A DNA stretch of 64,000 bases from the human T2T-CHM13v2.0 reference genome, Homo sapiens. Location: NCBI RefSeq assembly GCF_009914755.1, contig NC_060932.1; one strand, given 5' to 3'. Below, piece after piece: positions 14,610 to 58,874 of this stretch (position 1 is its first letter; every line of letters begins with the position of its first letter). A model generated the notes under the pieces. It made no database searches, was not told the DNA's origin, and saw nothing but the letters and a program-made list of their open reading frames with translations. Position numbers and translations under genes: made by a program.

Positions 14610-17600
14610 TCACTCCAGGTCAGAATCGCTGTCCTCTGAGGAGGAGGAAACCTGAAGGTCCTCATAGAGGACGCTCGGTGGGACACGAACACAGGGACCC
14701 TCAGACTTCTCTGACACATGAGGGCTCTGAGCGAGGAAGGCTCCCGGCTTCTCAGGAGAGTGAAATGAGGGGGCCGCCAGGAGGCTGGAGCTCCAGCGTC
14801 CGTTTTCCAGTCTCCGGAAGAGCACTCTGAGAGGCTGGGCCCCATCATGGCTGGCCGCTGAGTGATGGGACATGGTGCAGGCCTGGGCAGTAGGCAGGCA
14901 AGGTGTGCTGTGCAGAGGCTGCCGGTCGACGCTGGGCACCTGGGCCGGTGTCCTCCTGCCCATCTGGGGCGACGTACTTGTTCCAAGTTCGGTTGCGGCT
15001 GGCGGAGGTTGGAGATTCTCCAGGGCCCCCAGCTCACCTCCCTGGATGGCGCTTTCGGGGATCTGGAAGGGACCCAGTCTCGGTTTCTTGGGGAAGTTCA
15101 GGCAAGCCTGAATCGGAGCCTGGGCAGGTCTCTTGGCTCCTGGCCCGAAGCTGAGATTGGAGCCTAGGCCCAAGCTGTGTGTGGCGGCTGGCGGGCAGGG
15201 CTGTGAGGTCACCGCAGGACGTTTGTCTTGTGCCTGGGGTCTGGCGGCCTGGAGCAGGCCGTGGGTTTTGGAGGCAGCCTGGGGAACTTCTCGGCAGCCA
15301 CCCTCAGGGCTGCTGTGTGTCGGCTTCACCACGAGGAGAGGCTCGCGGCCCTGGTGCCTGACTGCAGGCTGAGGCATGTCGGCCGCAGCCCCTGTCTGTC
15401 TTTCCTTTGGTCCAAGACTTGAGGAGGAGCTCAGGCTGGCTTTTCTGAGGGGAGACAGTGAAGCCAAGACGGAGCCCCTGCCAGACATTTCGGCAGCTGA
15501 GCGATCAGCGAGGACAGGGTCCACGCGCGGCCTCTTACTGGTTGTGTGGACCGGCATTGGCCCGCTTGCAACCTGAAAGAGAGGAAACAACACAGGTTAG
15601 AAGTTCCTCAGCATGGAGCCAACGTGAAAATCAAGCACATCCAAAGACAAGGTGCACACGCCATGAAATTCTTAGTACAGTATCGACAGGCGGTCCTTGG
15701 AAGTAGGGACAGACCCTCCACCTGAGTGCTGATCAGGACAAGACACATGAAAGATGCGCTCTCGAGCTATGTGTAGCTGATCTAAGCACACCATTGTTCA
15801 AAAGATCGCGTCTTGGGCATTAACTGGATCAAAGCGCCTCCACTCAGCCTTCCATGAAGTGGAACAGACTAATGCCCTTCCCGAGGCAGGTTGCTGGCTC
15901 AAGGGTACTCGGGACGTCTTCTCTGAACACATGCATGTTCCTGGGTTTCGCCTTCTCCACGTTTGGGGCCTCTGAGGGACTAATTTCCTCATGCCGCTAG
16001 GAACGTGTTGTTGGCAGGCTTGCCATAATTGGACAGAAAGAAAGCCACAGGAAATACGGCATCTTCAGATGCCTTCGCCTGGAATCCAATTGACCTGGAA
16101 GGATCGTGGAGTCCCTGACCCCAAGAAGGCAAGAAAGAGGGGTTCCCCGATTTCCTCCCGCAGACGGGAAGCTGAAAGGAAATCAACCAGGGTGACCTAG
16201 AGGAGAAAAAGACCAGGGGCCCGGGGTGACACTCGCCCTCAGATGATCAGAAGATTCCGTGGATCCTTTTCCATTCGGCAGCGGCTTCTCTGGAGGTTTC
16301 CCGGAAAACATGTGGAGGAGAGCCTTCCTCTGCGGGTCTTGTTGCCTGCAGAACAGAAGAAGGTCAGGCGGTGCCCCCTGGTTTTCCCCAGGAGACAGGG
16401 AGAACCCCGTCTGGGGCCCAGCCCCATTCCGTGTTTTGTGATACAGAAATGGACATCTGGTGCCCTTTCCGCCTCTGCACCTTCCCTCACGTGCCAACCT
16501 TCCCATCCTCCAGGTGGCCCTCTAGGCTTCCCAACTAAGGACTGTGATTTGGATTCCATCGCTTTTCCCGCTGTCGTGGGGAACCTGCACGAAGCGCCCC
16601 CGCCTCTCCCCGTCCCTGAATCTCCCAGAGCCCAAGGAGCTCCTGGGTGTGGAACCCCGGAGGACACGGAGCTCCGGCCTATTTCTCTGCAGCGTTCCTT
16701 CCCTGGCCCGGAGACGGAAAGGCACACGGTGTGCAGGTGCAGAGACACCATGTCCTTAGGAGGCAGTACCCTAAGAGTGGTGAAAACCCCTCCCACTGCT
16801 CACCTTGGTCTCTCTTCCTTCTCTCCCTTATCCTTGTTCAAGGGCCCCGGGTTGGCTTCACCCCGGGGCTTCCATGGTTTCAGGTTTTCCTTCCCTTCCT
16901 TTTTCCCCAAGGTCGCTGGAACCAGGGCTGCCTTCCAGCACTTCATGGGGCACCTGGTACTTCTGGCCGTGTGGCCAAAGGCCCCGCAGTTTTTGCACTT
17001 GAGCTGTGGGTGGAAAGGAAGTGATGTCAGTGAGTGAGCTGAAGCCACAGGCAGCGATCCCACGTCAACATTGGGACGGATTGTGAATTCAGAGCTGAAT
17101 AAGGATTCCAAAGAGGGGACACCGGCATGGGGGCCGTTAAGTGCTGGGAGAGTTCGGATACGATGTTCCCTCGCAAAGCCCATGGGACGGAGGAACTCTG
17201 AAAGGAAGGACTCAAGGTTCCAAGGGGCACGATGGTGAAGCCGATGTCAACAACGCAGCCAAACGTGGCTACACAGGACTCTAAGTAGAAAGGGAGGTTG
17301 CCCCCAAGAGTCTCTCAAGGGACCTATCGGGCCGGGGAGAAGGTCCCAAGCCACGCCCACCTTGGATGGGAAAAGCAACCTGGCTGGTGGTGACAGAACT
17401 CTTTGGAATCCAACCCAGTCTCTGAGGACCGTGGGACACCCCCTCCCCCCGTCCCCACCCCCACCCCGATACCCAAGAGATCCAGGGCTAGACTTACCCT
17501 GGGATCTTCTTCATCGGGCGGGGGAGCCCTTGGCCCAACTGGGGCCCTCCGCTGCTTCTGGAGGGTCTGGGCTCTCACCAGTCTCTTGGCCCAAGATTTG

Positions 17601-17620
17601 GGGTCCCGACGTGCCATCAT
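14610..17620 (-). CDS. FAM90A: FAM90A family protein, copy 1, 464 aa. Exons 17620-17498, 17003-16804, 16345-16237, 15572-14610; GC donor at the last intron
   Basis: MMARRDPKSWAKRLVRAQ...LKCKNCGAFGHTARSTRCPMK...VLYEDLQVSSSSEDSDSDLE; 123+200+109+963=1395 nt with matched splice phases. Confidence 0.93.
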
Positions 17621-18178
17621 CTTCGTCTCCTGGGGGTTTTATGACCGCCTTTTTCAGGGGTGGACTGTTGGGCCACCTGAAACACACAGAAACACACACA
17701 TGTCGATGGTTAAGCACGTTGGATATTCACACACCCACAGGAAGCCACCTGCTAACTCCCTGCCTGTGTGGTCATGAGGAGACCTCACCACCAGTCGGTC
17801 AAATCTGTAGAACACAATGTGCTGTGTGCATCCTCGGATACTGTGTGTTCCTCTGCCATGACTACCTAGTCCAAGAGTAAACCCCACCTGCCACAGGGCC
17901 CGTGGCCTAGGTATGGGGGGTTGAGCTTTCAACCCCAAACAAACAACTGATTCTGGAGACTGGACTTAGGTCTCTCACGATTCACTCCGGTAGAAGACAC
18001 GGTGATTCTATCTCCCTTGACGGACAGAATGATCGAAGACACAGGGCATGGCGTGTGCCACCCTTTGGCAGGTCTGCTTGAAGTCACGGATAAGGGATGC
18101 TTCCTGTGACAACTTGAATCGCTACTCTTGCCATTTCATTAGGCAACTTCCAAACACAAATTCATACAGAGAAGTTAC

Positions 18179-18745
18179 CTTCCTCTCTACCGCACTAGCA
18201 GGTGATGGTCTTTCCTGTTCTATCTTTTGGCTTTAGCTCCAGCACCTCTTTGTTTATTTTCCTGGTATTTTACGCATACCACACGAATTCATCTGAACAA
18301 ACGGGGAAGAAGTGCCGTATCGTATCGACGTCTTACACGGCTGAAGGGCAAACCCCCCTTTTTTCCAAAGTCCTTTTTCCGTTTACCCACCAATTCAGCA
18401 TGCTGCAGTACATTTCTTTTCGCATTCCCATCTTGGTCTTCTCCCACACGTGGAGACGGGTATGTTTTCTCGTTTTCTGTTCCAAGAATTACTAGTAACG
18501 AGAACACATCCTACCCCACCAGCAAGCCCCAGTGTGATCGGTTTCTTTCGGCCTCCTTTGTCTCTTCCTCCCCCACACCCCCCGCAAAAACCCCTCAGGG
18601 ATTGCGTGAAACAAACAATTGTTCAGCGAAACTAACCTGAAATTACACGTCTACTTTCTTTCCCAGGCTGGCGCTGAGATGGGCAGGTGCTGCAGCAGCC
18701 CGGCTGGAAGCGATGCAGCATCCAGGACGACGGAGGAAGGGGCGG
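18179..18745 (-). other. Predicted FAM90A non-coding 5' exons (~18745-18637 and 18292-18179); first coding exon starts at 17676
   Basis: Donors CAG|GTTAGT (18637/18636) and AAG|GTAACT (18179/18178); acceptors ttcttccccgtttgttcag| (18292) and tgtgtttcag| (17676). The TSS is inferred about 30 nt downstream of the TATA box. Confidence 0.6.
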
Positions 18746-18772
18746 AGAGGGACCTCTGCTTTCCAGGCTGCC

Positions 18773-18861
18773 TTTTATACTGCCTCTGGTCACCTGACAT
18801 GGAACGTACCCTAACCTAATCAGTTACCTGTACCTTAATTGCAATTAACTTAATCCAATTA
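18773..18861 (-). promoter_or_regulatory. FAM90A core promoter: TATAAAA, DUX4 site and homeodomain palindromes (also 26424-26512, 34075-34163, 41726-41814, 49379-49467, 57033-57121)
   Basis: TATAAAA (minus) 18773-18779; TAACCTAATCA 18812-18822; TTAATTGCAATTAA 18835-18848; TAATCCAATTA 18851-18861. Confidence 0.75.
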
Positions 18862-19020
18862 CATGACCTGGAAAGGTCTGTCTGCACAGCCCACTCTAAG
18901 ATCATGTCCACTGCTGACAGACATTCTAAAACCTACTTGTACAGCTGCAAGCTTTGAACAATAGATGTTCCCCGTCAGACATGTAACACTGGTGCCTGTA
19001 CCCCTGTCTTCTTTTCCATC

Positions 19021-19054
19021 TTTTTTGTTGTTTTGTTTTGTTTTGTTTTGTTTT
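19021..19054. repeat. (TTTTG)n simple repeat (each unit)
   Basis: Directly visible. Confidence 0.85.
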
Positions 19055-20614
19055 AAAAAATGTGGTAAAATAGACACCTTTTAATTGGACCACATTTTGT
19101 CTATCTCGACGTAGGCCTCAGTGTCATCAAGGAGACTCTGCTTGACATGCAGTCACGGCCATGATCCATCTTCAGAGCTTCTCTTTCTTCCCCAAGGTAA
19201 GTCTGTCAGCAGAGAACCCTGACCGCACCCTCATGTGTTTTCTCCCCCAGGAGGCGCTTGGAAACCACCGTGAATTGGACCGCACTGGGAAACACAGATG
19301 AGGAAAGTCAACAACGCTTTGTCCTTCAGTGCCTGGCTCCTTTTTCAGCTCGTCTTGCGACTCCAGGCATTATGCCTGAAAAGTCTCCCGGACGCCTGTG
19401 AGGCTGTAATTCCCTGGGTCCCATTGCCATGTCTCTGGATTTGCGAAGATCCACCGCACCTTCTGTGGAACTCCCGTGTCGGTGAACTTTTGTGCCACGG
19501 CCCCTAATTCTGCCCATGGTCATCCGCACCTGCACGACTTAGGGTCCATGTTCCTTGGACGGGAAGAGACAGGCAGGAGTCGGAATGATGAACCAGCACA
19601 CTGGGGCGTTTTCTCATGTAGCCCAAGTGACCCCATGGTCTTCTCGAGCTTTGGAACCAGTCGCGTCCCCTTTGACACTGCACCCGGCTCCCAGTCTCTC
19701 AATCTTGTTGGCCCTCCGGCGATCTCCCGTTGGATGGATTGCTCCTGCTGAAACTCGAGTCCCCTTTGATTTGCGCTTCATTAATTATTCATGATTCAGG
19801 TTGGAAGGCCTGCTGACGACCCCCTGTGGCCGTTCTCTGAGCTTTCCTGTCACATCGTTTCCTTCCACGCTCTTTGGTTCCTTATGGTCCTGCTCCTTCT
19901 GCTGTCAGAGGAGCAGAGAGTTGATCTTATTCATTCTGGATACGGATACTTTCTAGTTGATCTGGATAATCAAGATAACGACCCTCAACAGCGGCGGAAA
20001 GGGAGCAGCCAGTTGGTGTGTCTCAGAAAATCCCGCTGAGTTCCGAGGCCTCCTAGATGTGGAATCCTGCTGAGAGTTGTTCCCAGGTCAGAGAATGGAG
20101 AGAGCCTGTGCATGATGGGATATCCCCGCCTAGATCTTTCAGTGAGTCTCTGCCTCAGCTACTCTTAGGATCAGGGGGAGAACCATGGTGTCAGACATCC
20201 GGAAAGAAGACGGGATGAATGTTTTACCTCTGAAGTACATCCCAAATGTGGGAGTTAACTTCAGCTTTGCTGGGGTCTATTTGGCCAGTGAAACTCTGCC
20301 TGGTTCCTTCGCACATCCGGAAGCCACTTCACGGGGGGCCGTCGCAACTGGAACCACACACTTGGCATCGGCGGTTGAGCCAAATGGGGACTCGTGGTGC
20401 AAGCAACGCTCCCCACGTGTTAGCGTGCGTGAGATTCGGTTGGCGGAATTTTACTAGGTGCGTGTTGGTAGAGTGGGGCTGAGGTTTTCTTGCTCCTGTG
20501 GATGTATAGGAAGTCAAAGGTCCTGCCCAGCCCTGCGGTCCCCTCAGTCAACTCCGTTTCGGAGACGTAACGATTTGGATTGCCAACAAGTCAAGAAATG
20601 TTCAAGCCCTTGGA

Positions 20615-25200: not shown

Positions 25201-25271
25201 CGCTGCTTCTGGAGGGTCTGGGCTCTCACCAGTCTCTTGGCCCAAGATTTGGGGTCCCGACGTGCCATCAT
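22261..25271 (-). CDS. FAM90A: FAM90A copy 2, 464 aa. Exons 25271-25149, 24654-24455, 23996-23888, 23223-22261
   Basis: Intact frame; all introns GT-AG. Confidence 0.94.
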
Positions 25272-28265
25272 CTTCGTCTCCTGGGGGTTTTATGACCGCC
25301 TTTTTCAGGGGTGGACTGTTGGGCCACCTGAAACACACAGAAACACACACATGTCGATGGTTAAGCACGTTGGATATTCACACACCCACAGGAAGCCACC
25401 TGCTAACTCCCTGCCTGTGTGGTCATGAGGAGACCTCACCACCAGTCGGTCAAATCTGTAGAACACAATGTGCTGTGTGCATCCTCGGATACTGTGTGTT
25501 CCTCTGCCATGACTACCTAGTCCAAGAGTAAACCCCACCTGCCACAGGGCCCGTGGCCTAGGTATGGGGGGTTGAGCTTTCAACCCCAAACAAACAACTG
25601 ATTCTGGAGACTGGACTTAGGTCTCTCACGATTCACTCCGGTAGAAGACACGGTGATTCTATCTCCCTTGACGGACAGAATGATCGAAGACACAGGGCAT
25701 GGCGTGTGCCACCCTTTGGCAGGTCTGCTTGAAGTCACGGATAAGGGATGCTTCCTGTGACAACTTGAATCGCTACTCTTGCCATTTCATTAGGCAACTT
25801 CCAAACACAAATTCATACAGAGAAGTTACCTTCCTCTCTACCGCACTAGCAGGTGATGGTCTTTCCTGTTCTATCTTTTGGCTTTAGCTCCAGCACCTCT
25901 TTGTTTATTTTCCTGGTATTTTACGCATACCACACGAATTCATCTGAACAAACGGGGAAGAAGTGCCGTATCGTATCGACGTCTTACACGGCTGAAGGGC
26001 AAACCCCCCTTTTTTCCAAAGTCCTTTTTCCGTTTACCCACCAATTCAGCATGCTGCAGTACATTTCTTTTCGCATTCCCATCTTGGTCTTCTCCCACAC
26101 GTGGAGACGGGTATGTTTTCTCGTTTTCTGTTCCAAGAATTACTAGTAACGAGAACACATCCTACCCCACCAGCAAGCCCCAGTGTGATCGGTTTCTTTC
26201 GGCCTCCTTTGTCTCTTCCTCCCCCACACCCCCCGCAAAAACCCCTCAGGGATTGCGTGAAACAAACAATTGTTCAGCGAAACTAACCTGAAATTACACG
26301 TCTACTTTCTTTCCCAGGCTGGCGCTGAGATGGGCAGGTGCTGCAGCAGCCCCGCTGGAAGCGATGCAGCATCCAGGACGACGGAGGAAGGGGCGGAGAG
26401 GGACCTCTGCTTTCCAGGCTGCCTTTTATACTGCCTCTGGTCACCTGACATGGAACGTACCCTAACCTAATCAGTTACCTGTACCTTAATTGCAATTAAC
26501 TTAATCCAATTACATGACCTGGAAAGGTCTGTCTGCACAGCCCACTCTAAGATCATGTCCACTGCTGACAGACATTCTAAAACCTACTTGTACAGCTGCA
26601 AGCTTTGAACAATAGATGTTCCCCGTCAGACATGTAACACTGGTGCCTGTACCCCTGTCTTCTTTTCCATCTTTTTTGTTGTTTTGTTTTGTTTTGTTTT
26701 GTTTTAAAAAATGTGGTAAAATAGACACCTTTTAATTGGACCACATTTTGTCTATCTCGACGTAGGCCTCAGTGTCATCAAGGAGACTCTGCTTGACATG
26801 CAGTCACGGCCATGATCCATCTTCAGAGCTTCTCTTTCTTCCCCAAGGTAAGTCTGTCAGCAGAGAACCCTGACCGCACCCTCATGTGTTTTCTCCCCCA
26901 GGAGGCGCTTGGAAACCACCGTGAATTGGACCGCACTGGGAAACACAGATGAGGAAAGTCAACAACGCTTTGTCCTTCAGTGCCTGGCTCCTTTTTCAGC
27001 TCGTCTTGCGACTCCAGGCATTATGCCTGAAAAGTCTCCCGGACGCCTGTGAGGCTGTAATTCCCTGGGTCCCATTGCCATGTCTCTGGATTTGCGAAGA
27101 TCCACCGCACCTTCTGTGGAACTCCCGTGTCGGTGAACTTTTGTGCCACGGCCCCTAATTCTGCCCATGGTCATCCGCACCTGCACGACTTAGGGTCCAT
27201 GTTCCTTGGACGGGAAGAGACAGGCAGGAGTCGGAATGATGAACCAGCACACTGGGGCGTTTTCTCATGTAGCCCAAGTGACCCCATGGTCTTCTCGAGC
27301 TTTGGAACCAGTCGCGTCCCCTTTGACACTGCACCCGGCTCCCAGTCTCTCAATCTTGTTGGCCCTCCGGCGATCTCCCGTTGGATGGATTGCTCCTGCT
27401 GAAACTCGAGTCCCCTTTGATTTGCGCTTCATTAATTATTCATGATTCAGGTTGGAAGGCCTGCTGACGACCCCCTGTGGCCGTTCTCTGAGCTTTCCTG
27501 TCACATCGTTTCCTTCCACGCTCTTTGGTTCCTTATGGTCCTGCTCCTTCTGCTGTCAGAGGAGCAGAGAGTTGATCTTATTCATTCTGGATACGGATAC
27601 TTTCTAGTTGATCTGGATAATCAAGATAACGACCCTCAACAGCGGCGGAAAGGGAGCAGCCAGTTGGTGTGTCTCAGAAAATCCCGCTGAGTTCCGAGGC
27701 CTCCTAGATGTGGAATCCTGCTGAGAGTTGTTCCCAGGTCAGAGAATGGAGAGAGCCTGTGCATGATGGGATATCCCCGCCTAGATCTTTCAGTGAGTCT
27801 CTGCCTCAGCTACTCTTAGGATCAGGGGGAGAACCATGGTGTCAGACATCCGGAAAGAAGACGGGATGAATGTTTTACCTCTGAAGTACATCCCAAATGT
27901 GGGAGTTAACTTCAGCTTTGCTGGGGTCTATTTGGCCAGTGAAACTCTGCCTGGTTCCTTCGCACATCCGGAAGCCACTTCACGGGGGGCCGTCGCAACT
28001 GGAACCACACACTTGGCATCGGCGGTTGAGCCAAATGGGGACTCGTGGTGCAAGCAACGCTCCCCACGTGTTAGCGTGCGTGAGATTCGGTTGGCGGAAT
28101 TTTACTAGGTGCGTGTTGGTAGAGTGGGGCTGAGGTTTTCTTGCTCCTGTGGATGTATAGGAAGTCAAAGGTCCTGCCCAGCCCTGCGGTCCCCTCAGTC
28201 AACTCCGTTTCGGAGACGTAACGATTTGGATTGCCAACAAGTCAAGAAATGTTCAAGCCCTTGGA

Positions 28266-32922: not shown

Positions 32923-35916
32923 CTTCGTCTCCTGGGGGTTTTATGACCGCCTTTTTCAGGGGTGGACTGTTGGGCCACCTGAAACACACACAAACACACA
33001 CATGTCGATGGTTAAGCACGTTGGATATTCACACACCCACAGGAAGCCACCTGCTAACTCCCTGCCTGTGTGGTCATGAGGAGACCTCACCACCAGTCGG
33101 TCAAATCTGTAGAACACAATGTGCTGTGTGCATCCTCGGATACTGTGTGTTCCTCTGCCATGACTACCTAGTCCAAGAGTAAACCCCACCTGCCACAGGG
33201 CCCGTGGCCTAGGTATGGGGGGTTGAGCTTTCAACCCCAAACAAACAACTGATTCTGGAGACTGGACTTAGGTCTCTCACGATTCACTCCGGTAGAAGAC
33301 ACGGTGATTCTATCTCCCTTGACGGACAGAATGATCGAAGACACAGGGCATGGCGTGTGCCACCCTTTGGCAGGTCTGCTTGAAGTCACGGATAAGGGAT
33401 GCTTCCTGTGACAACTTGAATCGCTACTCTTGCCATTTCATTAGGCAACTTCCAAACACAAATTCATACAGAGAAGTTACCTTCCTCTCTACCGCACTAG
33501 CAGGTGATGGTCTTTCCTGTTCTATCTTTTGGCTTTAGCTCCAGCACCTCTTTGTTTATTTTCCTGGTATTTTACGCATACCACACGAATTCATCTGAAC
33601 AAACGGGGAAGAAGTGCCGTATCGTATCGACGTCTTACACGGCTGAAGGGCAAACCCCCCTTTTTTCCAAAGTCCTTTTTCCGTTTACCCACCAATTCAG
33701 CATGCTGCAGTACATTTCTTTTCGCATTCCCATCTTGGTCTTCTCCCACACGTGGAGACGGGTATGTTTTCTCGTTTTCTGTTCCAAGAATTACTAGTAA
33801 CGAGAACACATCCTACCCCACCAGCAAGCCCCAGTGTGATCGGTTTCTTTCGGCCTCCTTTGTCTCTTCCTCCCCCACACCCCCCGCAAATACCCCTCAG
33901 GGATTGCGTGAAACAAACAATTGTTCAGCGAAACTAACCTGAAATTACACGTCTACTTTCTTTCCCAGGCTGGCGCTGAGATGGGCAGGTGCTGCAGCAG
34001 CCCGGCTGGAAGCGATGCAGCATCCAGGACGACGGAGGAAGGGGCGGAGAGGGACCTCTGCTTTCCAGGCTGCCTTTTATACTGCCTCTGGTCACCTGAC
34101 ATGGAACGTACCCTAACCTAATCAGTTACCTGTACCTTAATTGCAATTAACTTAATCCAATTACATGACCTGGAAAGGTCTGTCTGCACAGCCCACTCTA
34201 AGATCATGTCCACTGCTGACAGACATTCTAAAACCTACTTGTACAGCTGCAAGCTTTGAACAATAGATGTTCCCCGTCAGACATGTAACACTGGTGCCTG
34301 TACCCCTGTCTTCTTTTCCATCTTTTTTGTTGTTTTGTTTTGTTTTGTTTTGTTTTAAAAAATGTGGTAAAATAGACACCTTTTAATTGGACCACATTTT
34401 GTCTATCTCGACGTAGGCCTCAGTGTCATCAAGGAGACTCTGCTTGACATGCAGTCACGGCCATGATCCATCTTCAGAGCTTCTCTTTCTTCCCCAAGGT
34501 AAGTCTGTCAGCAGAGAACCCTGACCGCACCCTCATGTGTTTTCTCCCCCAGGAGGCGCTTGGAAACCACCGTGAATTGGACCGCACTGGGAAACACAGA
34601 TGAGGAAAGTCAACAACGCTTTGTCCTTCAGTGCCTGGCTCCTTTTTCAGCTCGTCTTGCGACTCCAGGCATTATGCCTGAAAAGTCTCCCGGACGCCTG
34701 TGAGGCTGTAATTCCCTGGGTCCCATTGCCATGTCTCTGGATTTGCGAAGATCCACCGCACCTTCTGTGGAACTCCCGTGTCGGTGAACTTTTGTGCCAC
34801 GGCCCCTAATTCTGCCCATGGTCATCCGCACCTGCACGACTTAGGGTCCATGTTCCTTGGACGGGAAGAGACAGGCAGGAGTCGGAATGATGAACCAGCA
34901 CACTGGGGCGTTTTCTCATGTAGCCCAAGTGACCCCATGGTCTTCTCGAGCTTTGGAACCAGTCGCGTCCCCTTTGACACTGCACCCGGCTCCCAGTCTC
35001 TCAATCTTGTTGGCCCTCCGGCGATCTCCCGTTGGATGGATTGCTCCTGCTGAAACTCGAGTCCCCTTTGATTTGCGCTTCATTAATTATTCATGATTCA
35101 GGTTGGAAGGCCTGCTGACGACCCCCTGTGGCCGTTCTCTGAGCTTTCCTGTCACATCGTTTCCTTCCACGCTCTTTGGTTCCTTATGGTCCTGCTCCTT
35201 CTGCTGTCAGAGGAGCAGAGAGTTGATCTTATTCATTCTGGATACGGATACTTTCTAGTTGATCTGGATAATCAAGATAACGACCCTCAACAGCGGCGGA
35301 AAGGGAGCAGCCAGTTGGTGTGTCTCAGAAAATCCCGCTGAGTTCCGAGGCCTCCTAGATGTGGAATCCTGCTGAGAGTTGTTCCCAGGTCAGAGAATGG
35401 AGAGAGCCTGTGCATGATGGGATATCCCCGCCTAGATCTTTCAGTGAGTCTCTGCCTCAGCTACTCTTAGGATCAGGGGGAGAACCATGGTGTCAGACAT
35501 CCGGAAAGAAGACGGGATGAATGTTTTACCTCTGAAGTACATCCCAAATGTGGGAGTTAACTTCAGCTTTGCTGGGGTCTATTTGGCCAGTGAAACTCTG
35601 CCTGGTTCCTTCGCACATCCGGAAGCCACTTCACGGGGGGCCGTCGCAACTGGAACCACACACTTGGCATCGGCGGTTGAGCCAAATGGGGACTCGTGGT
35701 GCAAGCAACGCTCCCCACGTGTTAGCGTGCGTGAGATTCGGTTGGCGGAATTTTACTAGGTGCGTGTTGGTAGAGTGGGGCTGAGGTTTTCTTGCTCCTG
35801 TGGATGTATAGGAAGTCAAAGGTCCTGCCCAGCCCTGCGGTCCCCTCAGTCAACTCCGTTTCGGAGACGTAACGATTTGGATTGCCAACAAGTCAAGAAA
35901 TGTTCAAGCCCTTGGA

Positions 35917-40573: not shown

Positions 40574-43567
40574 CTTCGTCTCCTGGGGGTTTTATGACCG
40601 CCTTTTTCAGGGGTGGACTGTTGGGCCACCTGAAACACACAGAAACACACACATGTCGATGGTTAAGCACGTTGGATATTCACACACCCACAGGAAGCCA
40701 CCTGCTAACTCCCTGCCTGTGTGGTCATGAGGAGACCTCACCACCAGTCGGTCAAATCTGTAGAACACAATGTGCTGTGTGCATCCTCGGATACTGTGTG
40801 TTCCTCTGCCATGACTACCTAGTCCAAGAGTAAACCCCACCTGCCACAGGGCCCGTGGCCTAGGTATGGGGGGTTGAGCTTTCAACCCCAAACAAACAAC
40901 TGATTCTGGAGACTGGACTTAGGTCTCTCACGATTCACTCCGGTAGAAGACACGGTGATTCTATCTCCCTTGACGGACAGAATGATCGAAGACACAGGGC
41001 ATGGCGTGTGCCACCCTTTGGCAGGTCTGCTTGAAGTCACGGATAAGGGATGCTTCCTGTGACAACTTGAATCGCTACTCTTGCCATTTCATTAGGCAAC
41101 TTCCAAACACAAATTCATACAGAGAAGTTACCTTCCTCTCTACCGCACTAGCAGGTGATGGTCTTTCCTGTTCTATCTTTTGGCTTTAGCTCCAGCACCT
41201 CTTTGTTTATTTTCCTGGTATTTTACGCATACCACACGAATTCATCTGAACAAACGGGGAAGAAGTGCCGTATCGTATCGACGTCTTACACGGCTGAAGG
41301 GCAAACCCCCCTTTTTTCCAAAGTCCTTTTTCCGTTTACCCACCAATTCAGCATGCTGCAGTACATTTCTTTTCGCATTCCCATCTTGGTCTTCTCCCAC
41401 ACGTGGAGACGGGTATGTTTTCTCGTTTTCTGTTCCAAGAATTACTAGTAACGAGAACACATCCTACCCCACCAGCAAGCCCCAGTGTGATCGGTTTCTT
41501 TCGGCCTCCTTTGTCTCTTCCTCCCCCACACCCCCCGCAAAAACCCCTCAGGGATTGCGTGAAACAAACAATTGTTCAGCGAAACTAACCTGAAATTACA
41601 CGTCTACTTTCTTTCCCAGGCTGGCGCTGAGATGGGCAGGTGCTGCAGCAGCCCGGCTGGAAGCGATGCAGCATCCAGGACGACGGAGGAAGGGGCGGAG
41701 AGGGACCTCTGCTTTCCAGGCTGCCTTTTATACTGCCTCTGGTCACCTGACATGGAACGTACCCTAACCTAATCAGTTACCTGTACCTTAATTGCAATTA
41801 ACTTAATCCAATTACATGACCTGGAAAGGTCTGTCTGCACAGCCCACTCTAAGATCATGTCCACTGCTGACAGACATTCTAAAACCTACTTGTACAGCTG
41901 CAAGCTTTGAACAATAGATGTTCCCCGTCAGACATGTAACACTGGTGCCTGTACCCCTGTCTTCTTTTCCATCTTTTTTGTTGTTTTGTTTTGTTTTGTT
42001 TTGTTTTAAAAAATGTGGTAAAATAGACACCTTTTAATTGGACCACATTTTGTCTATCTCGACGTAGGCCTCAGTGTCATCAAGGAGACTCTGCTTGACA
42101 TGCAGTCACGGCCATGATCCATCTTCAGAGCTTCTCTTTCTTCCCCAAGGTAAGTCTGTCAGCAGAGAACCCTGACCGCACCCTCATGTGTTTTCTCCCC
42201 CAGGAGGCGCTTGGAAACCACCGTGAATTGGACCGCACTGGGAAACACAGATGAGGAAAGTCAACAACGCTTTGTCCTTCAGTGCCTGGCTCCTTTTTCA
42301 GCTCGTCTTGCGACTCCAGGCATTATGCCTGAAAAGTCTCCCGGACGCCTGTGAGGCTGTAATTCCCTGGGTCCCATTGCCATGTCTCTGGATTTGCGAA
42401 GATCCACCGCACCTTCTGTGGAACTCCCGTGTCGGTGAACTTTTGTGCCACGGCCCCTAATTCTGCCCATGGTCATCCGCACCTGCACGACTTAGGGTCC
42501 ATGTTCCTTGGACGGGAAGAGACAGGCAGGAGTCGGAATGATGAACCAGCACACTGGGGCGTTTTCTCATGTAGCCCAAGTGACCCCATGGTCTTCTCGA
42601 GCTTTGGAACCAGTCGCGTCCCCTTTGACACTGCACCCGGCTCCCAGTCTCTCAATCTTGTTGGCCCTCCGGCGATCTCCCGTTGGATGGATTGCTCCTG
42701 CTGAAACTCGAGTCCCCTTTGATTTGCGCTTCATTAATTATTCATGATTCAGGTTGGAAGGCCTGCTGACGACCCCCTGTGGCCGTTCTCTGAGCTTTCC
42801 TGTCACATCGTTTCCTTCCACGCTCTTTGGTTCCTTATGGTCCTGCTCCTTCTGCTGTCAGAGGAGCAGAGAGTTGATCTTATTCATTCTGGATACGGAT
42901 ACTTTCTAGTTGATCTGGATAATCAAGATAACGACCCTCAACAGCGGCGGAAAGGGAGCAGCCAGTTGGTGTGTCTCAGAAAATCCCGCTGAGTTCCGAG
43001 GCCTCCTAGATGTGGAATCCTGCTGAGAGTTGTTCCCAGGTCAGAGAATGGAGAGAGCCTGTGCATGATGGGATATCCCCGCCTAGATCTTTCAGTGAGT
43101 CTCTGCCTCAGCTACTCTTAGGATCAGGGGGAGAACCATGGTGTCAGACATCCGGAAAGAAGACGGGATGAATGTTTTACCTCTGAAGTACATCCCAAAT
43201 GTGGGAGTTAACTTCAGCTTTGCTGGGGTCTATTTGGCCAGTGAAACTCTGCCTGGTTCCTTCGCACATCCGGAAGCCACTTCACGGGGGGCCGTCGCAA
43301 CTGGAACCACACACTTGGCATCGGCGGTTGAGCCAAATGGAGACTCGTGGTGCAAGCAACGCTCCCCACGTGTTAGCGTGCGTGAGATTCGGTTGGCGGA
43401 ATTTTACTAGGTGCGTGTTGGTAGAGTGGGGCTGAGGTTTTCTTGCTCCTGTGGATGTATAGGAAGTCAAAGGTCCTGCCCAGCCCTGCGGTCCCCTCAG
43501 TCAACTCTGTTTCGGAGACGTAACGATTTGGATTGCCAACAAGACAAGATATGTTCAAGCCCTTGGA

Positions 43568-48226: not shown

Positions 48227-51220
48227 CTTCGTCTCCTGGGGGTTTTATGACCGCCTTTTTCAGGGGTGGACTGTTGGGCCACCTGAAACACACACAAACA
48301 CACACATGTCGATGGTTAAGCACGTTGGATATTCACACACCCACAGGAAGCCACCTGCTAACTCCCTGCCTGTGTGGTCATGAGGAGACCTCACCACCAG
48401 TCGGTCAAATCTGTAGAACACAATGTGCTGTGTGCATCCTCGGATACTGTGTGTTCCTCTGCCATGACTACCTAGTCCAAGAGTAAACCCCACCTGCCAC
48501 AGGGCCCGTGGCCTAGGTATGGGGGGTTGAGCTTTCAACCCCAAACAAACAACTGATTCTGGAGACTGGACTTAGGTCTCTCACGATTCACTCCGGTAGA
48601 AGACACGGTGATTCTATCTCCCTTGACGGACAGAATGATCGAAGACACAGGGCATGGCGTGTGCCACCCTTTGGCAGGTCTGCTTGAAGTCACGGATAAG
48701 GGATGCTTCCTGTGACAACTTGAATCGCTACTCTTGCCATTTCATTAGGCAACTTCCAAACACAAATTCATACAGAGAAGTTACCTTCCTCTCTACCGCA
48801 CTAGCAGGTGATGGTCTTTCCTGTTCTATCTTTTGGCTTTAGCTCCAGCACCTCTTTGTTTATTTTCCTGGTATTTTACGCATACCACACGAATTCATCT
48901 GAACAAACGGGGAAGAAGTGCCGTATCGTATCGACGTCTTACACGGCTGAAGGGCAAACCCCCCTTTTTTCCAAAGTCCTTTTTCCGTTTACCCACCAAT
49001 TCAGCATGCTGCAGTACATTTCTTTTCGCATTCCCATCTTGGTCTTCTCCCACACGTGGAGACGGGTATGTTTTCTCGTTTTCTGTTCCAAGAATTACTA
49101 GTAACGAGAACACATCCTACCCCACCAGCAAGCCCCAGTGTGATCGGTTTCTTTCGGCCTCCTTTGTCTCTTCCTCCCCCACACCCCCCGCAAATACCCC
49201 TCAGGGATTGCGTGAAACAAACAATTGTTCAGCGAAACTAACCTGAAATTACACGTCTACTTTCTTTCCCAGGCTGGCGCTGAGATGGGCAGGTGCTGCA
49301 GCAGCCCGGCTGGAAGCGATGCAGCATCCAGGACGACGGAGGAAGGGGCGGAGAGGGACCTCTGCTTTCCAGGCTGCCTTTTATACTGCCTCTGGTCACC
49401 TGACATGGAACGTACCCTAACCTAATCAGTTACCTGTACCTTAATTGCAATTAACTTAATCCAATTACATGACCTGGAAAGGTCTGTCTGCACAGCCCAC
49501 TCTAAGATCATGTCCACTGCTGACAGACATTCTAAAACCTACTTGTACAGCTGCAAGCTTTGAACAATAGATGTTCCCCGTCAGACATGTAACACTGGTG
49601 CCTGTACCCCTGTCTTCTTTTCCATCTTTTTTGTTGTTTTGTTTTGTTTTGTTTTGTTTTAAAAAATGTGGTAAAATAGACACCTTTTAATTGGACCACA
49701 TTTTGTCTATCTTGACGTAGGCCTCAGTGTCATCAAGGAGACTCTGCTTGACATGCAGTCACGGCCATGATCCATCTTCAGAGCTTCTCTTTCTTCCCCA
49801 AGGTAAGTCTGTCAGCAGAGAACCCTGACCGCACCCTCATGTGTTTTCTCCCCCAGGAGGCGCTTGGAAACCACCGTGAATTGGACCGCACTGGGAAACA
49901 CAGATGAGGAAAGTCAACAACGCTTTGTCCTTCAGTGCCTGGCTCCTTTTTCAGCTCGTCTTGCGACTCCAGGCATTATGCCTGAAAAGTCTCCCGGACG
50001 CCTGTGAGGCTGTAATTCCCTGGGTCCCATTGCCATGTCTCTGGATTTGCGAAGATCCACCGCACCTTCTGTGGAACTCCCGTGTCGGTGAACTTTTGTG
50101 CCACGGCCCCTAATTCTGCCCATGGTCATCCGCACCTGCACGACTTAGGGTCCATGTTCCTTGGACGGGAAGAGACAGGCAGGAGTCGGAATGATGAACC
50201 AGCACACTGGGGCGTTTTCTCATGTAGCCCAAGTGACCCCATGGTCTTCTCGAGCTTTGGAACCAGTCGCGTCCCCTTTGACACTGCACCCGGCTCCCAG
50301 TCTCTCAATCTTGTTGGCCCTCCGGCGATCTCCCGTTGGATGGATTGCTCCTGCTGAAACTCGAGTCCCCTTTGATTTGCGCTTCATTAATTATTCATGA
50401 TTCAGGTTGGAAGGCCTGCTGACGACCCCCTGTGGCCGTTCTCTGAGCTTTCCTGTCACATCGTTTCCTTCCACGCTCTTTGGTTCCTTATGGTCCTGCT
50501 CCTTCTGCTGTCAGAGGAGCAGAGAGTTGATCTTATTCATTCTGGATACGGATACTTTCTAGTTGATCTGGATAATCAAGATAACGACCCTCAACAGCGG
50601 CGGAAAGGGAGCAGCCAGTTGGTGTGTCTCAGAAAATCCCGCTGAGTTCCGAGGCCTCCTAGATGTGGAATCCTGCTGAGAGTTGTTCCCAGGTCAGAGA
50701 ATGGAGAGAGCCGGTGCATGATGGGATATCCCCGCCTAGATCTTTCAGTGAGTCTCTGCCTCAGCTACTCTTAGGATCAGGGGGAGAACCATGGTGTCAG
50801 ACATCCGGAAAGAAGACGGGATGAATGTTTTACCTCTGAAGTACATCCCAAATGTGGGAGTTAACTTCAGCTTTGCTGGGGTCTATTTGGCCAGTGAAAC
50901 TCTGCCTGGTTCCTTCGCACATCCGGAAGCCACTTCACGGGGGGCCGTCGCAACTGGAACCACACACTTGGCATCGGCGGTTGAGCCAAATGGGGACTCG
51001 TGGTGCAAGCAACGCTCCCCACGTGTTAGCGTGCGTGAGATTCGGTTGGCGGAATTTTACTAGGTGCGTGTTGGTAGAGTGGGGCTGAGGTTTTCTTGCT
51101 CCTGTGGATGTATAGGAAGTCAAAGGTCCTGCCCAGCCCTGCGGTCCCCTCAGTCAACTCCGTTTCGGAGACGTAACGATTTGGATTGCCAACAAGTCAA
51201 GAAATGTTCAAGCCCTTGGA

Positions 51221-55880: not shown

Positions 55881-58874
55881 CTTCGTCTCCTGGGGGTTTT
55901 ATGACCGCCTTTTTCAGGGGTGGACTGTTGGGCCACCTGAAACACACAGAAACACACACATGTCGATGGTTAAGCACGTTGGATATTCACACACCCACAG
56001 GAAGCCACCTGCTAACTCCCTGCCTGTGTGGTCATGAGGAGACCTCACCACCAGTCGGTCAAATCTGTAGAACACAATGTGCTGTGTGCATCCTCGGATA
56101 CTGTGTGTTCCTCTGCCATGACTACCTAGTCCAAGAGTAAACCCCACCTGCCACAGGGCCCGTGGCCTAGGTATGGGGGGTTGAGCTTTCAACCCCAAAC
56201 AAACAACTGATTCTGGAGACTGGACTTAGGTCTCTCACGATTCACTCCGGTAGAAGACACGGTGATTCTATCTCCCTTGACGGACAGAATGATCGAAGAC
56301 ACAGGGCATGGCGTGTGCCACCCTTTGGCAGGTCTGCTTGAAGTCACGGATAAGGGATGCTTCCTGTGACAACTTGAATCGCTACTCTTGCCATTTCATT
56401 AGGCAACTTCCAAACACAAATTCATACAGAGAAGTTACCTTCCTCTCTACCGCACTAGCAGGTGATGGTCTTTCCTGTTCTATCTTTTGGCTTTAGCTCC
56501 AGCACCTCTTTGTTTATTTTCCTGGTATTTTACGCATACCACACGAATTCATCTGAACAAACGGGGAAGAAGTGCCGTATCGTATCGACGTCTTACACGG
56601 CTGAAGGGCAAACCCCCCTTTTTTCCAAAGTCCTTTTTCCGTTTACCCACCAATTCAGCATGCTGCAGTACATTTCTTTTCGCATTCCCATCTTGGTCTT
56701 CTCCCACACGTGGAGACGGGTATGTTTTCTCGTTTTCTGTTCCAAGAATTACTAGTAACGAGAACACATCCTACCCCACCAGCAAGCCCCAGTGTGATCG
56801 GTTTCTTTCGGCCTCCTTTGTCTCTTCCTCCCCCACACCCCCCGCAAAAACCCCTCAGGGATTGCGTGAAACAAACAATTGTTCAGCGAAACTAACCTGA
56901 AATTACACGTCTACTTTCTTTCCCAGGCTGGCGCTGAGATGGGCAGGTGCTGCAGCAGCCCGGCTGGAAGCGATGCAGCATCCAGGACGACGGAGGAAGG
57001 GGCGGAGAGGGACCTCTGCTTTCCAGGCTGCCTTTTATACTGCCTCTGGTCACCTGACATGGAACGTACCCTAACCTAATCAGTTACCTGTACCTTAATT
57101 GCAATTAACTTAATCCAATTACATGACCTGGAAAGGTCTGTCTGCACAGCCCACTCTAAGATCATGTCCACTGCTGACAGACATTCTAAAACCTACTTGT
57201 ACAGCTGCAAGCTTTGAACAATAGATGTTCCCCGTCAGACATGTAACACTGGTGCCTGTACCCCTGTCTTCTTTTCCATCTTTTTTGTTGTTTTGTTTTG
57301 TTTTGTTTTGTTTTAAAAAATGTGGTAAAATAGACACCTTTTAATTGGACCACATTTTGTCTATCTCGACGTAGGCCTCAGTGTCATCAAGGAGACTCTG
57401 CTTGACATGCAGTCACGGCCATGATCCATCTTCAGAGCTTCTCTTTCTTCCCCAAGGTAAGTCTGTCAGCAGAGAACCCTGACCGCACCCTCATGTGTTT
57501 TCTCCCCCAGGAGGCGCTTGGAAACCACCGTGAATTGGACCGCACTGGGAAACACAGATGAGGAAAGTCAACAACGCTTTGTCCTTCAGTGCCTGGCTCC
57601 TTTTTCAGCTCGTCTTGCGACTCCAGGCATTATGCCTGAAAAGTCTCCCGGACGCCTGTGAGGCTGTAATTCCCTGGGTCCCATTGCCATGTCTCTGGAT
57701 TTGCGAAGATCCACCGCACCTTCTGTGGAACTCCCGTGTCGGTGAACTTTTGTGCCACGGCCCCTAATTCTGCCCATGGTCATCCGCACCTGCACGACTT
57801 AGGGTCCATGTTCCTTGGACGGGAAGAGACAGGCAGGAGTCGGAATGATGAACCAGCACACTGGGGCGTTTTCTCATGTAGCCCAAGTGACCCCATGGTC
57901 TTCTCGAGCTTTGGAACCAGTCGCGTCCCCTTTGACACTGCACCCGGCTCCCAGTCTCTCAATCTTGTTGGCCCTCCGGCGATCTCCCGTTGGATGGATT
58001 GCTCCTGCTGAAACTCGAGTCCCCTTTGATTTGCGCTTCATTAATTATTCATGATTCAGGTTGGAAGGCCTGCTGACGACCCCCTGTGGCCGTTCTCTGA
58101 GCTTTCCTGTCACATCGTTTCCTTCCACGCTCTTTGGTTCCTTATGGTCCTGCTCCTTCTGCTGTCAGAGGAGCAGAGAGTTGATCTTATTCATTCTGGA
58201 TACGGATACTTTCTAGTTGATCTGGATAATCAAGATAACGACCCTCAACAGCGGCGGAAAGGGAGCAGCCAGTTGGTGTGTCTCAGAAAATCCCGCTGAG
58301 TTCCGAGGCCTCCTAGATGTGGAATCCTGCTGAGAGTTGTTCCCAGGTCAGAGAATGGAGAGAGCCTGTGCATGATGGGATATCCCCGCCTAGATCTTTC
58401 AGTGAGTCTCTGCCTCAGCTACTCTTAGGATCAGGGGGAGAACCATGGTGTCAGACATCCGGAAAGAAGACGGGATGAATGTTTTACCTCTGAAGTACAT
58501 CCCAAATGTGGGAGTTAACTTCAGCTTTGCTGGGGTCTATTTGGCCAGTGAAACTCTGCCTGGTTCCTTCGCACATCCGGAAGCCACTTCACGGGGGGCC
58601 GTCGCAACTGGAACCACACACTTGGCATCGGCGGTTGAGCCAAATGGAGACTCGTGGTGCAAGCAACGCTCCCCACGTGTTAGCGTGCGTGAGATTCGGT
58701 TGGCGGAATTTTACTAGGTGCGTGTTGGTAGAGTGGGGCTGAGGTTTTCTTGCTCCTGTGGATGTATAGGAAGTCAAAGGTCCTGCCCAGCCCTGCGGTC
58801 CCCTCAGTCAACTCTGTTTCGGAGACGTAACGATTTGGATTGCCAACAAGACAAGATATGTTCAAGCCCTTGGA

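What the first reader, a model, noticed from the sequence alone, without database searches (positions are those of the whole stretch)
18773..18861. Compact zygotic-genome-activation promoter at each FAM90A copy: TATA, DUX4 and PRD-homeodomain sites
Seen in all six promoters inside the window: TATAAAA; 33 bp upstream a perfect TAACCTAATCA; then a perfect 14-bp palindrome TTAATTGCAATTAA, overlapping TAACTTAATCC, and TAATCCAATTA. Established: TAAYYYAATCA is the DUX4 motif, TAAT-N3-ATTA is the paired-class dimer site, and TAATCC is the K50 homeodomain site (LEUTX/OTX/CRX type). Inference: the array is a copy-number-scaled DUX4-plus-PRD-like feed-forward target, co-regulated with PRR23D and relevant to 8-cell embryos and FSHD.
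Basis: partly seen in the sequence, partly recalled or inferred. Interest (0 to 1): 0.8.

Follow-up and report, generated by a model that had tools for sequence, protein, structure and literature searches.

The report
FAM90A promoter with DUX4 binding site
Each FAM90A gene copy carries the same short upstream stretch, a TATA box and a cluster of homeodomain binding sites including a textbook DUX4 site, which probably explains why this gene family switches on in early human embryos and in DUX4-expressing muscle cells.

Summary
All six FAM90A units in the window carry an identical 89-bp module on the gene (minus) strand: TATAAAAG, a consensus DUX4 site 32 bp upstream, a 14-bp palindrome, and overlapping TAACTTAATCC and TAATCCAATTA.

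Genome-wide there are 57 copies: 53 are exact, and four diverged copies include FAM90A1 on chr12. Across the diverged lineages 0 of 44 motif bases vary, against 3.6 expected (P about 0.02). A DUX4 site this close to a TATA box arose in 2 of 400 simulated sequences.

The module sits 1.16 kb upstream of the ATG. A roughly 113-nt exon-like segment with a conserved CAG|GTTAGT donor follows it.

Published arrays already report FAM90A1 as DUX4-induced (5.5- and 11.8-fold) and 128-fold enriched in day-3 embryos. The gene-level inference is therefore known; the site-level anatomy was not found in print.

Still unverified:
- the transcription start (RefSeq pseudogene spans begin 506 bp upstream);
- any factor binding;
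- PRR23D co-regulation, which rests on a motif only.

The same 11-mer-plus-TATA layout recurs in a dispersed LTR-like repeat. Homology between that repeat and the module is inconclusive.

The parts
18772..18779 (-). TATA box TATAAAAG of FAM90A unit 1 (FAM90A6P). The TATAAAA core of the equivalents lies at 26424-26430, 34075-34081, 41726-41732, 49379-49385 and 57033-57039.
   Evidence: Invariant in chr12 FAM90A1 and in three dispersed chr8 copies.
18812..18822 (+). DUX4-type double-homeodomain site TAACCTAATCA. It reads TGATTAGGTTA in the gene's direction and sits 32 bp upstream of the TATA box. It is a perfect match to the published consensus TAAYBBAATCA.
   Evidence: consensus quoted from PMC12376486. 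Invariant in all 57 genomic copies.
18823..18834 (.). 12-bp spacer between the DUX4 site and the palindrome. Three of the five variable positions inside the module fall here (18828, 18833, 18834).
18835..18848 (.). Perfect 14-bp palindrome TTAATTGCAATTAA, i.e. TAAT-N4-ATTA. In chr12 FAM90A1 the centre is changed (TTAATTACAATTAA), which breaks the palindrome but keeps the TAAT cores.
18846..18861 (+). Overlapping TAACTTAATCC (one mismatch from the DUX4 consensus) and TAATCCAATTA. The latter has P3 spacing (TAAT-N3-ATTA) and contains the K50 site TAATCC.
   Evidence: Invariant in all 57 copies.
18637..18749 (-). Predicted non-coding first exon. The start is inferred at about 25-35 bp downstream of the TATA box. 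The end is at the donor CAG|GTTAGT (GT at 18636-18635).
   Evidence: Sequence read. The donor is conserved in chr12 and in the dispersed copies (no variable position in 18631-18640). The start is not verified by any transcript data.
17498..17676 (-). Exon carrying the start codon (ATG at 17620), preceded by the acceptor ...TGTGTTTCAG. It corresponds to RefSeq coding exon 25149-25271 of FAM90A7, one unit further on.
   Evidence: the hub annotation table, and the chr12 alignment.
26424..26512 (-). Module copy 2 (upstream of FAM90A7).
34075..34163 (-). Module copy 3.
41726..41814 (-). Module copy 4.
49379..49467 (-). Module copy 5.
57033..57121 (-). Module copy 6.

Best explanation
The 89-bp module is the proximal promoter shared by the whole FAM90A family, or at least a DUX4-responsive alternative promoter. 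All 57 copies in this genome carry it, including FAM90A1 on chr12.

Proposed mechanism:
1. DUX4 binds the consensus site TGATTAGGTTA 32 bp upstream of a consensus TATA box. By analogy, related double-homeodomain or paired-like factors of the cleavage stage could bind it too.
2. K50-type paired-like factors (LEUTX, OTX or TPRX class) could use the adjacent TAATCC/P3 site.
3. Transcription starts about 25-35 bp downstream of the TATA box and gives a non-coding first exon of about 113 nt. This exon splices to the ATG exon 960 bp downstream.
4. The module is identical in 53 copies, so output should scale with the copy number of the 8p23.1 arrays.

What is shown: the motif anatomy, its position and orientation, its invariance in diverged paralogues, and (from print) DUX4 induction and day-3-embryo enrichment of the FAM90A1 array probe.

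What is inferred: the start site, which factor binds which site, and copy-number scaling.
For: **Motifs.** They are present and identical in 6 of 6 window copies.

**Genome-wide.** There are 57 copies with at most 3 mismatches, 53 of them exact, and 0 in the reversed-pattern control.

**Diverged copies.** In the four diverged copies every substitution inside the 50-bp site cluster falls in the spacer or the palindrome centre.

**Conservation test.** In a 5-sequence alignment 55 of 679 ungapped columns vary, but 0 of 44 motif bases do. 3.6 were expected; binomial P 0.024, hypergeometric P 0.021.

**Against chance.**
- There are 2 consensus DUX4 sites in 21.7 kb against 0.145 expected, and both lie just upstream of a gene's 5' end.
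- The site-plus-TATA composite occurred in 2 of 400 simulations.
- Three of the 9 sites within one mismatch of the consensus lie inside the module.

**Gene structure.** The TATA box is followed by an exon-like segment with a consensus donor. The next acceptor precedes the ATG, and all of these are conserved in chr12 FAM90A1 at 93.5% overall identity.

**Literature (passages read).**
- FAM90A1 is up 5.5-fold and 11.8-fold in DUX4-transfected myoblasts. Its row carries the mark that the table legend assigns to previously described DUX4 targets (PMC5323140).
- The FAM90A1 probe is 128-fold higher in day-3 embryos than in trophectoderm (PMC3382239).
- The published DUX4 consensus is TAAYBBAATCA (PMC12376486).
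- LEUTX is a TAATCC-targeting K50 activator (PMC6258689; abstract in the listing).
- LEUTX gives feed-forward amplification at DUX4 target promoters (bioRxiv 10.64898/2026.10.27.762079).
Against: - No transcript 5'-end, ChIP or CUT&Tag data could be examined.
- RefSeq gives FAM90A6P and FAM90A21P spans that start at 19285 and 34587, 506 bp upstream of the TATA box. Some transcripts may therefore start further upstream and contain the module as 5'UTR or intron.
- No A-containing initiator lies 28-34 bp downstream of the TATA box; the sequence there is CCCTCTCC.
- The predicted 5'UTR contains an upstream ATG.
- The array probes cannot tell chr12 FAM90A1 from the chr8 copies.
- The conservation test is post hoc, rests on few substitutions, and every 90-bp window in the same alignment has at least 3 variable positions, so the module as a whole is not unusually conserved (5 of 90).
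- The site is TAAC..., not the optimal TAAT....
- TAAT-core density alone is matched by 13 clusters in 200 kb of chr12.
Confidence: 0.6

Rival explanations
1. The module is an exapted fragment of an old LTR (recalled as MaLR, MST/MLT1 type), whose own promoter has the same design. FAM90A would then be one more case of DUX4 using a retroelement LTR as a gene promoter. This reading is compatible with the best explanation and changes only the origin of the module.
For: - Genome-wide, TGATTVVRTTA-N(20-45)-TATAAAAG has 224 matches against 94 for the reversed control.
- Of the 95 listed rows outside chr8, about 70 (counted by eye) share one repeat-like spacer. Many of them carry the identical 11-mer TGATTAGGTTA 36 bp upstream of TATAAAAG, in the same orientation relative to the TATA box as in FAM90A.
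- Two fetched copies are clearly related to each other (score 239).
- The 200 bp downstream of the TATA box align colinearly with marginal scores: shuffle fractions 0.018 and 0.052.
- DUX4 activation of MaLRs and creation of promoters and first exons from repeats is stated in PMC12376486.
Against: - The upstream 160 bp and the spacer show no similarity (shuffle fractions 0.45, 0.36, 0.88, 0.90).
- The whole-region local alignment finds only the 11-mer: score 22 against a shuffle mean of 19.9 and maxima of 27 and 26.
- The marginal downstream values are uncorrected for six tests and used mononucleotide shuffles.
- The 201-bp query found only 57 candidates in the genome, all of them FAM90A units.
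- Only 2 repeat copies could be compared, and the family name is recalled rather than tested.
Confidence: 0.25
2. The cluster is not the start site. It lies inside the 5'UTR or first intron of FAM90A transcripts that begin upstream (at or beyond 19285). It acts, if at all, as a downstream enhancer, or it is conserved because it is exonic.
For: - RefSeq pseudogene spans start at 19285 and 34587 (hub table).
- A usable acceptor (CCTTTCCAG|G) sits at 18868, just upstream of the module, so an upstream-initiated transcript could include 18867-18637 as an internal exon.
- There is no canonical initiator at the expected distance.
- Predicted antisense lncRNA exons (18667-19196 on the + strand, hub table) show that the region is transcribed in other ways.
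Against: - 19285 is the G of an AG preceded by a pyrimidine run (CTGTGTTTCCCAG). It looks like an internal exon boundary of an aligned parent mRNA, not a start site (inference).
- chr8-chr12 homology ends only 86 bp further upstream (19371), so upstream starts would have to differ between the loci.
- TATAAAAG with a consensus DUX4 site 32 bp upstream is improbable by chance.
- The candidate acceptor at 18868 is one of the variable positions (18866, 18868, 18869).
Confidence: 0.2
3. The motifs are a chance AT-rich patch with no regulatory role. It was copied 57 times by segmental duplication, and the DUX4 response of FAM90A comes from elsewhere.
For: - The six (or 53) identical copies are one event, so they give no independent support.
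- AT-rich clusters with as many TAAT cores occur elsewhere.
Against: - The composite occurred in 2 of 400 simulations, and consensus sites are 2 against 0.145 expected.
- 0 of 44 motif bases vary among the diverged lineages, against 3.6 expected.
- Position, strand and the following splice donor fit the gene.
- No other consensus DUX4 site exists in the 7.65-kb unit, while the family is DUX4-induced.
Confidence: 0.08

Closest known systems
Direct DUX4 target promoters of cleavage-stage genes (ZSCAN4, TRIM43, PRAMEF, LEUTX and others)
   Same: A consensus TAAYBBAATCA site lies close to the putative start. The gene family is induced by DUX4 in myoblasts and is high in day-3 embryos. It is a primate-expanded, multi-copy family.
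   Different: DUX4 occupancy and the start site were not seen here. The module is present in 57 near-identical copies, so standard unique-mapping analyses would under-report it. No paper found in the searched main texts dissects this promoter.
LTR promoters of a dispersed repeat (recalled as MaLR, MST/MLT1 type) that DUX4 activates
   Same: The identical 11-mer TGATTAGGTTA lies in the same orientation, 36 bp (against 32 bp) upstream of TATAAAAG. DUX4 is reported to activate MaLRs and to create promoters and first exons from repeats.
   Different: There is no significant sequence homology outside the two motifs. Only the downstream 200 bp are marginal. The extra palindrome and the TAATCC/P3 cluster upstream of the DUX4 site are not seen in the two LTR copies examined.
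K50 paired-like (LEUTX/OTX2/CRX-type) TAATCC targets and P3 palindromic sites
   Same: TAATCCAATTA has TAAT-N3-ATTA spacing with one TAATCC half-site. LEUTX is a TAATCC-targeting activator and is proposed to amplify DUX4 targets.
   Different: The second half-site is TAATTG (Q50-like), not a second TAATCC. The 14-bp palindrome has N4 spacing. No binding data were seen. That P3 is the paired-class dimer spacing is recalled, not checked in a call.
36-bp / 35-bp de novo motif of human embryonic genome activation promoters (Tohonen et al. 2015)
   Same: It is a PRD-like homeodomain-type motif near the starts of genes activated at the 4- to 8-cell stage.
   Different: That motif mostly overlaps Alu elements. 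The FAM90A module is not Alu-like, and the paper's main text has 0 mentions of FAM90 or PRR23. Its supplementary gene lists could not be opened.

Membership tests
Direct DUX4 target promoter | Match to the DUX4 consensus TAAYBBAATCA near the start site | tested here: met
   TAACCTAATCA at 18812-18822, a perfect match; consensus from PMC12376486.
Direct DUX4 target promoter | Transcript induced when DUX4 is expressed | not testable with these tools
   From print only. FAM90A1 is up 5.5- and 11.8-fold in DUX4-transfected myoblasts and is flagged as a previously described target (PMC5323140). The probe cannot separate the paralogues.
Direct DUX4 target promoter | DUX4 occupancy (ChIP-seq or CUT&Tag) at the site | not testable with these tools
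   No read data are available. Geng 2012, Hendrickson 2017 and Whiddon 2017 are not held.
TATA-box core promoter | Consensus TATA box in the gene's orientation, upstream of the first exon | tested here: met
   TATAAAAG at 18779-18772 on the - strand, 1.16 kb upstream of the ATG. An exon-like segment ending in CAG|GTTAGT follows it.
TATA-box core promoter | Transcription start 25-35 bp downstream of the TATA box | not testable with these tools
   No 5'-end data. RefSeq models give the CDS only, or pseudogene spans that start at 19285.
K50 paired-like (LEUTX/OTX/TPRX-type) target | TAATCC site in the promoter | tested here: met
   TAATCC at 18851-18856. There are 17 TAATCC in the whole window, so the hexamer alone is weak evidence.
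K50 paired-like (LEUTX/OTX/TPRX-type) target | Binding or activation by the factor | not testable with these tools
   No data were seen. The LEUTX preprint's main text does not name FAM90A.
Paired-class P3 dimer site (TAAT-N3-ATTA) | Inverted TAAT cores separated by 3 bp | tested here: met
   TAATCCAATTA at 18851-18861.
Paired-class P3 dimer site (TAAT-N3-ATTA) | The same spacing in the 14-bp palindrome | tested here: not met
   TTAATTGCAATTAA is TAAT-TGCA-ATTA, i.e. N4. The palindrome is broken in chr12 FAM90A1.
LTR-derived (MaLR-type) DUX4 promoter | Same layout: DUX4 site about 35 bp upstream of the LTR's TATA box | tested here: met
   the identical 11-mer lies 36 bp upstream of TATAAAAG in a dispersed repeat.
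LTR-derived (MaLR-type) DUX4 promoter | Sequence homology of the module and its flanks to the LTR family | tested here: inconclusive
   Against 2 copies only. Whole-region score is 22 against a shuffle mean of 19.9. Shuffle fractions: upstream 0.45 and 0.36; spacer 0.88 and 0.90; downstream 0.018 and 0.052. No Dfam or RepeatMasker was available.

The most novel reading that the evidence does not exclude
The roughly 57 identical DUX4/paired-like-responsive promoters make the copy-number-variable 8p23.1 FAM90A arrays a dosage amplifier. A brief DUX4 pulse at the 4-cell stage, or in FSHD nuclei, would trigger a burst of FAM90A protein in proportion to array size. FAM90A1 has been reported as a transcriptional activator that associates with BRD2/3/4. 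Array copy number would then modulate embryonic genome activation or FSHD severity, and the array could also titrate DUX4.
Probability: 0.12. Interest if true: 0.7.

Novelty: new member of a known kind. Interest (0 to 1): 0.35.

Why it matters
FAM90A is one of the three largest gene families in the complete human genome, with more than 50 paralogues, and it has no known function. It lies in the copy-number-variable, inversion-prone 8p23.1 duplications, where short reads do not map uniquely.

A defined, testable promoter module would explain the reported DUX4 and day-3-embryo expression. It also gives a concrete target for remapping DUX4, LEUTX and TPRX binding data to T2T-CHM13, and it would let expression be related to copy number.

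FAM90A1 was picked up as a BET-protein-associated transcriptional activator, so a cleavage-stage burst from dozens of copies could be relevant to genome activation and to FSHD. Even so, the finding adds site-level detail to a known DUX4 target rather than a new principle.

Tried and rejected
**Literature**
- Main-text searches for FAM90A with DUX4, 8-cell, genome activation, ZSCAN4 or embryo gave only two relevant papers. FAM90A alone gave 141 papers, of which 40 were listed.
- PRR23D gave 21 papers, none on DUX4 or embryos. The search was set too loosely and gave nothing for PRR23D.
- Three papers that mention FAM90A were irrelevant to regulation.
Gene lists, TSS tables and ChIP peak tables of the key DUX4 and embryo papers could therefore not be checked, and they may well contain FAM90A.
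- Geng 2012, Hendrickson 2017 and Whiddon 2017 are not held.

**Sequence work**
- Tandem Repeats Finder reports nothing, because the 7.65-kb period exceeds its limit.
- The pattern search was mistyped (a 12-mer instead of the 11-mer) and its result is void; one search is the corrected search.

**Ideas rejected**
- TAAT-core density is not a useful statistic, because other AT-rich clusters match it.
- The 14-bp palindrome is not a paired-class P3 site.
- The six copies are not independent evidence.

Full report
**Observation**

The gene strand is the minus strand. Read in the gene's direction, the sequence runs:
1. TAATTGGATTA (18861-18851);
2. an overlapping near-DUX4 site;
3. the palindrome TTAATTGCAATTAA (18848-18835);
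4. a 12-bp spacer;
5. TGATTAGGTTA (18822-18812);
6. 32 bp;
7. TATAAAAG (18779-18772).

Each recurs in the five further units, and 140 bp around the module are identical in 6 of 6 copies. The units are 7651-7654 bp apart. The six copies are one recent duplication, so they count as one observation.

**Is it more than chance?**

I used the non-redundant part of the window (1-21700).
- It holds 2 sites matching the published DUX4 consensus TAAYBBAATCA, where 0.145 are expected under a first-order Markov model. One is this site. The other lies at 4995-5005, 186 bp upstream of the annotated PRR23D1 start (5191).
- A consensus site within -90 to -10 of a TATAAA arose in 2 of 400 simulated sequences.
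- Three of the 9 sites within one mismatch of the consensus lie inside the 50-bp cluster.
- The density of TAAT cores (5 in 50 bp) equals the window maximum. It is not rare in general: 200 kb of chr12 holds 13 clusters with 6 or more.

**Place in the gene**

The module lies 1.16 kb upstream of the FAM90A start codon (17620 in unit 1, equivalent to RefSeq coding exon 25149-25271 of FAM90A7).
- Downstream of the TATA box comes a segment of about 113 nt that ends in a consensus donor, CAG|GTTAGT (exon end 18637).
- The next good acceptor (TGTGTTTCAG|G, exon start 17676) opens the ATG exon.

This is the anatomy of a TATA promoter with a short non-coding first exon, but no transcript data were available to confirm the start.

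Points against:
- There is no A-containing initiator at the expected distance.
- The predicted leader contains an upstream ATG.
- RefSeq's pseudogene spans (FAM90A6P, FAM90A21P) begin 506 bp upstream, at 19285 and 34587.

Base 19285 is the G of an AG preceded by a pyrimidine run. I read it as an internal exon boundary of an aligned parent mRNA rather than a start site. That is inference.

**Copies elsewhere**

The window's own assembly could be searched.
- The 201 bp around the module have 57 candidate places. The 40 that were scored are all on chr8 at 99-100% identity.
- The 50-bp site cluster has 57 matches with up to 3 mismatches, and none in the reversed control. 53 are exact, all on chr8. 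Three are dispersed chr8 copies with 3 mismatches each. One is on chr12 with 3 mismatches.

I fetched 200 kb of chr12. The chr12 copy proved to be a full FAM90A unit, by position FAM90A1. It is 95.3% identical over 5.3 kb and 93.5% over the 1.9-kb promoter region. Homology starts at window position 19371, only 592 bp upstream of the TATA box.

So the reported DUX4 target FAM90A1 and the 8p23.1 array copies share this promoter.

**Conservation test**

I aligned five sequences over 700 bp: the array copy, chr12, and the three dispersed chr8 copies.
- 55 of 679 ungapped columns vary.
- None of the 44 bases in the TATA box, the DUX4 site, the palindrome arms or the TAATCC/P3 block varies. 3.6 were expected; P is about 0.02.
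- The five variable positions inside the module are three spacer bases (18828, 18833, 18834), the palindrome centre (18841, chr12 only) and one base between the DUX4 site and the TATA box (18799).

This suggests constraint on the motif bases. The test is weak, because the partition is post hoc, the substitutions are few, and the module as a whole (5 variable positions in 90) is not more conserved than its surroundings. The palindrome itself is not conserved, and its spacing (TAAT-N4-ATTA) is not the P3 spacing. Only TAATCCAATTA is a P3-type site.

**What is in print**

- A review quotes TAAYBBAATCA as the ChIP-seq consensus and TAATCTAATCA as the optimum, with HD1 on TAAT and HD2 on TGAT. It states that DUX4 activates MaLRs and creates promoters and first exons from repeats (PMC12376486; passages).
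- In DUX4-transfected human myoblasts FAM90A1 is up 5.5-fold in one table and 11.8-fold in the 24-h table. Its row carries the mark that the legend assigns to targets already described by Geng et al. 2012 (PMC5323140; passages).
- In a day-3 embryo versus trophectoderm comparison, the FAM90A1 probe is 128-fold higher in day-3 embryos (PMC3382239; passage).
- LEUTX is a TAATCC-targeting K50 activator (PMC6258689; abstract in the listing).
- A 2026 preprint proposes LEUTX-mediated feed-forward amplification at DUX4 target promoters (10.64898/2026.10.27.762079; passages).

I found no main-text description of the FAM90A promoter's sites in searches for FAM90A with DUX4, 8-cell, genome activation, ZSCAN4 or embryo, nor among the 40 listed of 141 FAM90A papers. 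Tohonen et al. 2015 has 0 main-text mentions of FAM90 or PRR23.

ChIP peaks or start sites at FAM90A may exist in print without my having seen them.

**PRR23D**

The neighbouring PRR23D1 has a consensus DUX4 site (4995-5005, minus strand), further TAAT-rich sequence upstream, and a TATAAG about 48 bp before its annotated start. That is all the support there is for co-regulation. No paper links PRR23D to DUX4 or embryos (21 papers listed). One paper cites the Human Protein Atlas for PRR23D2 being epididymis-specific (PMC7436996).

**An unexpected parallel**

Genome-wide, the pattern TGATTVVRTTA, then 20-45 bp, then TATAAAAG has 224 matches against 94 for the reversed control.

100 rows were listed, 5 of them FAM90A units. 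Of the other 95, about 70 by my eye belong to one dispersed repeat, in many copies with the identical 11-mer TGATTAGGTTA 36 bp upstream of TATAAAAG. From memory this is a MaLR LTR of the MST/MLT1 type; I could not test the name.

FAM90A's core promoter therefore has the same layout and site orientation as an LTR promoter class that DUX4 is known to fire.

I fetched two such copies.
- They are clearly related to each other (score 239).
- They share nothing significant with the FAM90A promoter beyond the 11-mer (score 22 against a shuffle mean of 19.9).
- Split by segment, the upstream 160 bp and the spacer are at noise level. The 200 bp downstream of the TATA box are marginal (shuffle fractions 0.018 and 0.052).

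LTR origin stays open, and I put it at about 25%.

**Verdict**

- The most likely reading (about 0.6) is a DUX4-responsive TATA promoter shared by all 57 FAM90A copies, possibly reinforced by K50 paired-like factors.
- The start site and all binding are inferred.
- This is site-level detail for an already reported DUX4 target, so it is a new member of a known kind and of moderate interest.
- The interest lies mainly in the 57-fold copy number, the copy-number variation of the arrays, and the report that FAM90A1 is a BET-associated transcriptional activator (bioRxiv 2021.07.30.454360; passages).

Noticed in passing
window 4995-5005 (- strand), with 4732-4747 and about 5143: A second consensus DUX4 site (TAATTCAATCA) lies 186 bp upstream of the annotated PRR23D1 start (5191), within TAAT-rich sequence. 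A TATAAG lies about 48 bp before the start. A P3-type TAATGTGATTA overlapping a near-DUX4 site sits at 4732-4747. No expression evidence for DUX4 control was found.
   Followed up: partly
genome-wide; examples L054 (G000:C3:116893805-116894379) and L055 (G000:C2:96881782-96882356): A dispersed LTR-like repeat (recalled as MaLR, MST/MLT1 type) carries, in many copies, the identical 11-mer TGATTAGGTTA 36 bp upstream of TATAAAAG. This is the same layout as the FAM90A core promoter. About 70 of the 95 listed non-FAM90A matches belong to it, counted by eye.
   Followed up: partly
window 18667-19196 (+ strand) and equivalents 26318-26847, 33969-34498, 41620-42149: Predicted lncRNA exons (LOC124906726, hub table) run antisense across the FAM90A promoter module in successive units. 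They have a clean acceptor at 18666|18667 and a donor at 19196|GTAAGT. The array is therefore also transcribed unit to unit on the opposite strand.
   Followed up: no
chr12 locus, L039-L040 (G000:C12:8232898-8240644): FAM90A1 on chr12 is one complete 7.65-kb unit plus about 108 bp of overlap. Homology to the chr8 unit starts at window 19371 and wraps round to 19264 of the next unit. The chr12 copy therefore looks like an excerpt of a tandem array. A further 1-kb fragment of the unit (91% identity) lies at about chr12:8278743-8279771 in the opposite orientation.
   Followed up: partly
window 19027-19062 (- strand) and 18570-18590: Compared with chr12 and the dispersed chr8 copies, the array copy has one extra 5-bp unit in the (CAAAA)n tract just upstream of the module, and 14-16 extra bases in a G-rich stretch in intron 1.
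   Followed up: no
window 19284-19300 (- strand): The 5' end of the RefSeq FAM90A6P span (19285) coincides with an AG that follows a pyrimidine run (CTGTGTTTCCCAG). It looks like a splice acceptor rather than a transcription start.
   Followed up: no
G000:C8 7001675-7022802, 7272812-7341723, 11707188-11913737, 12377774-12454286: The 53 exact copies of the module fall into four blocks of 4, 10, 28 and 11 units. Three diverged single copies lie at 7.557, 12.162 and 12.699 Mb and are closer to the chr12 copy than to the arrays.
   Followed up: partly
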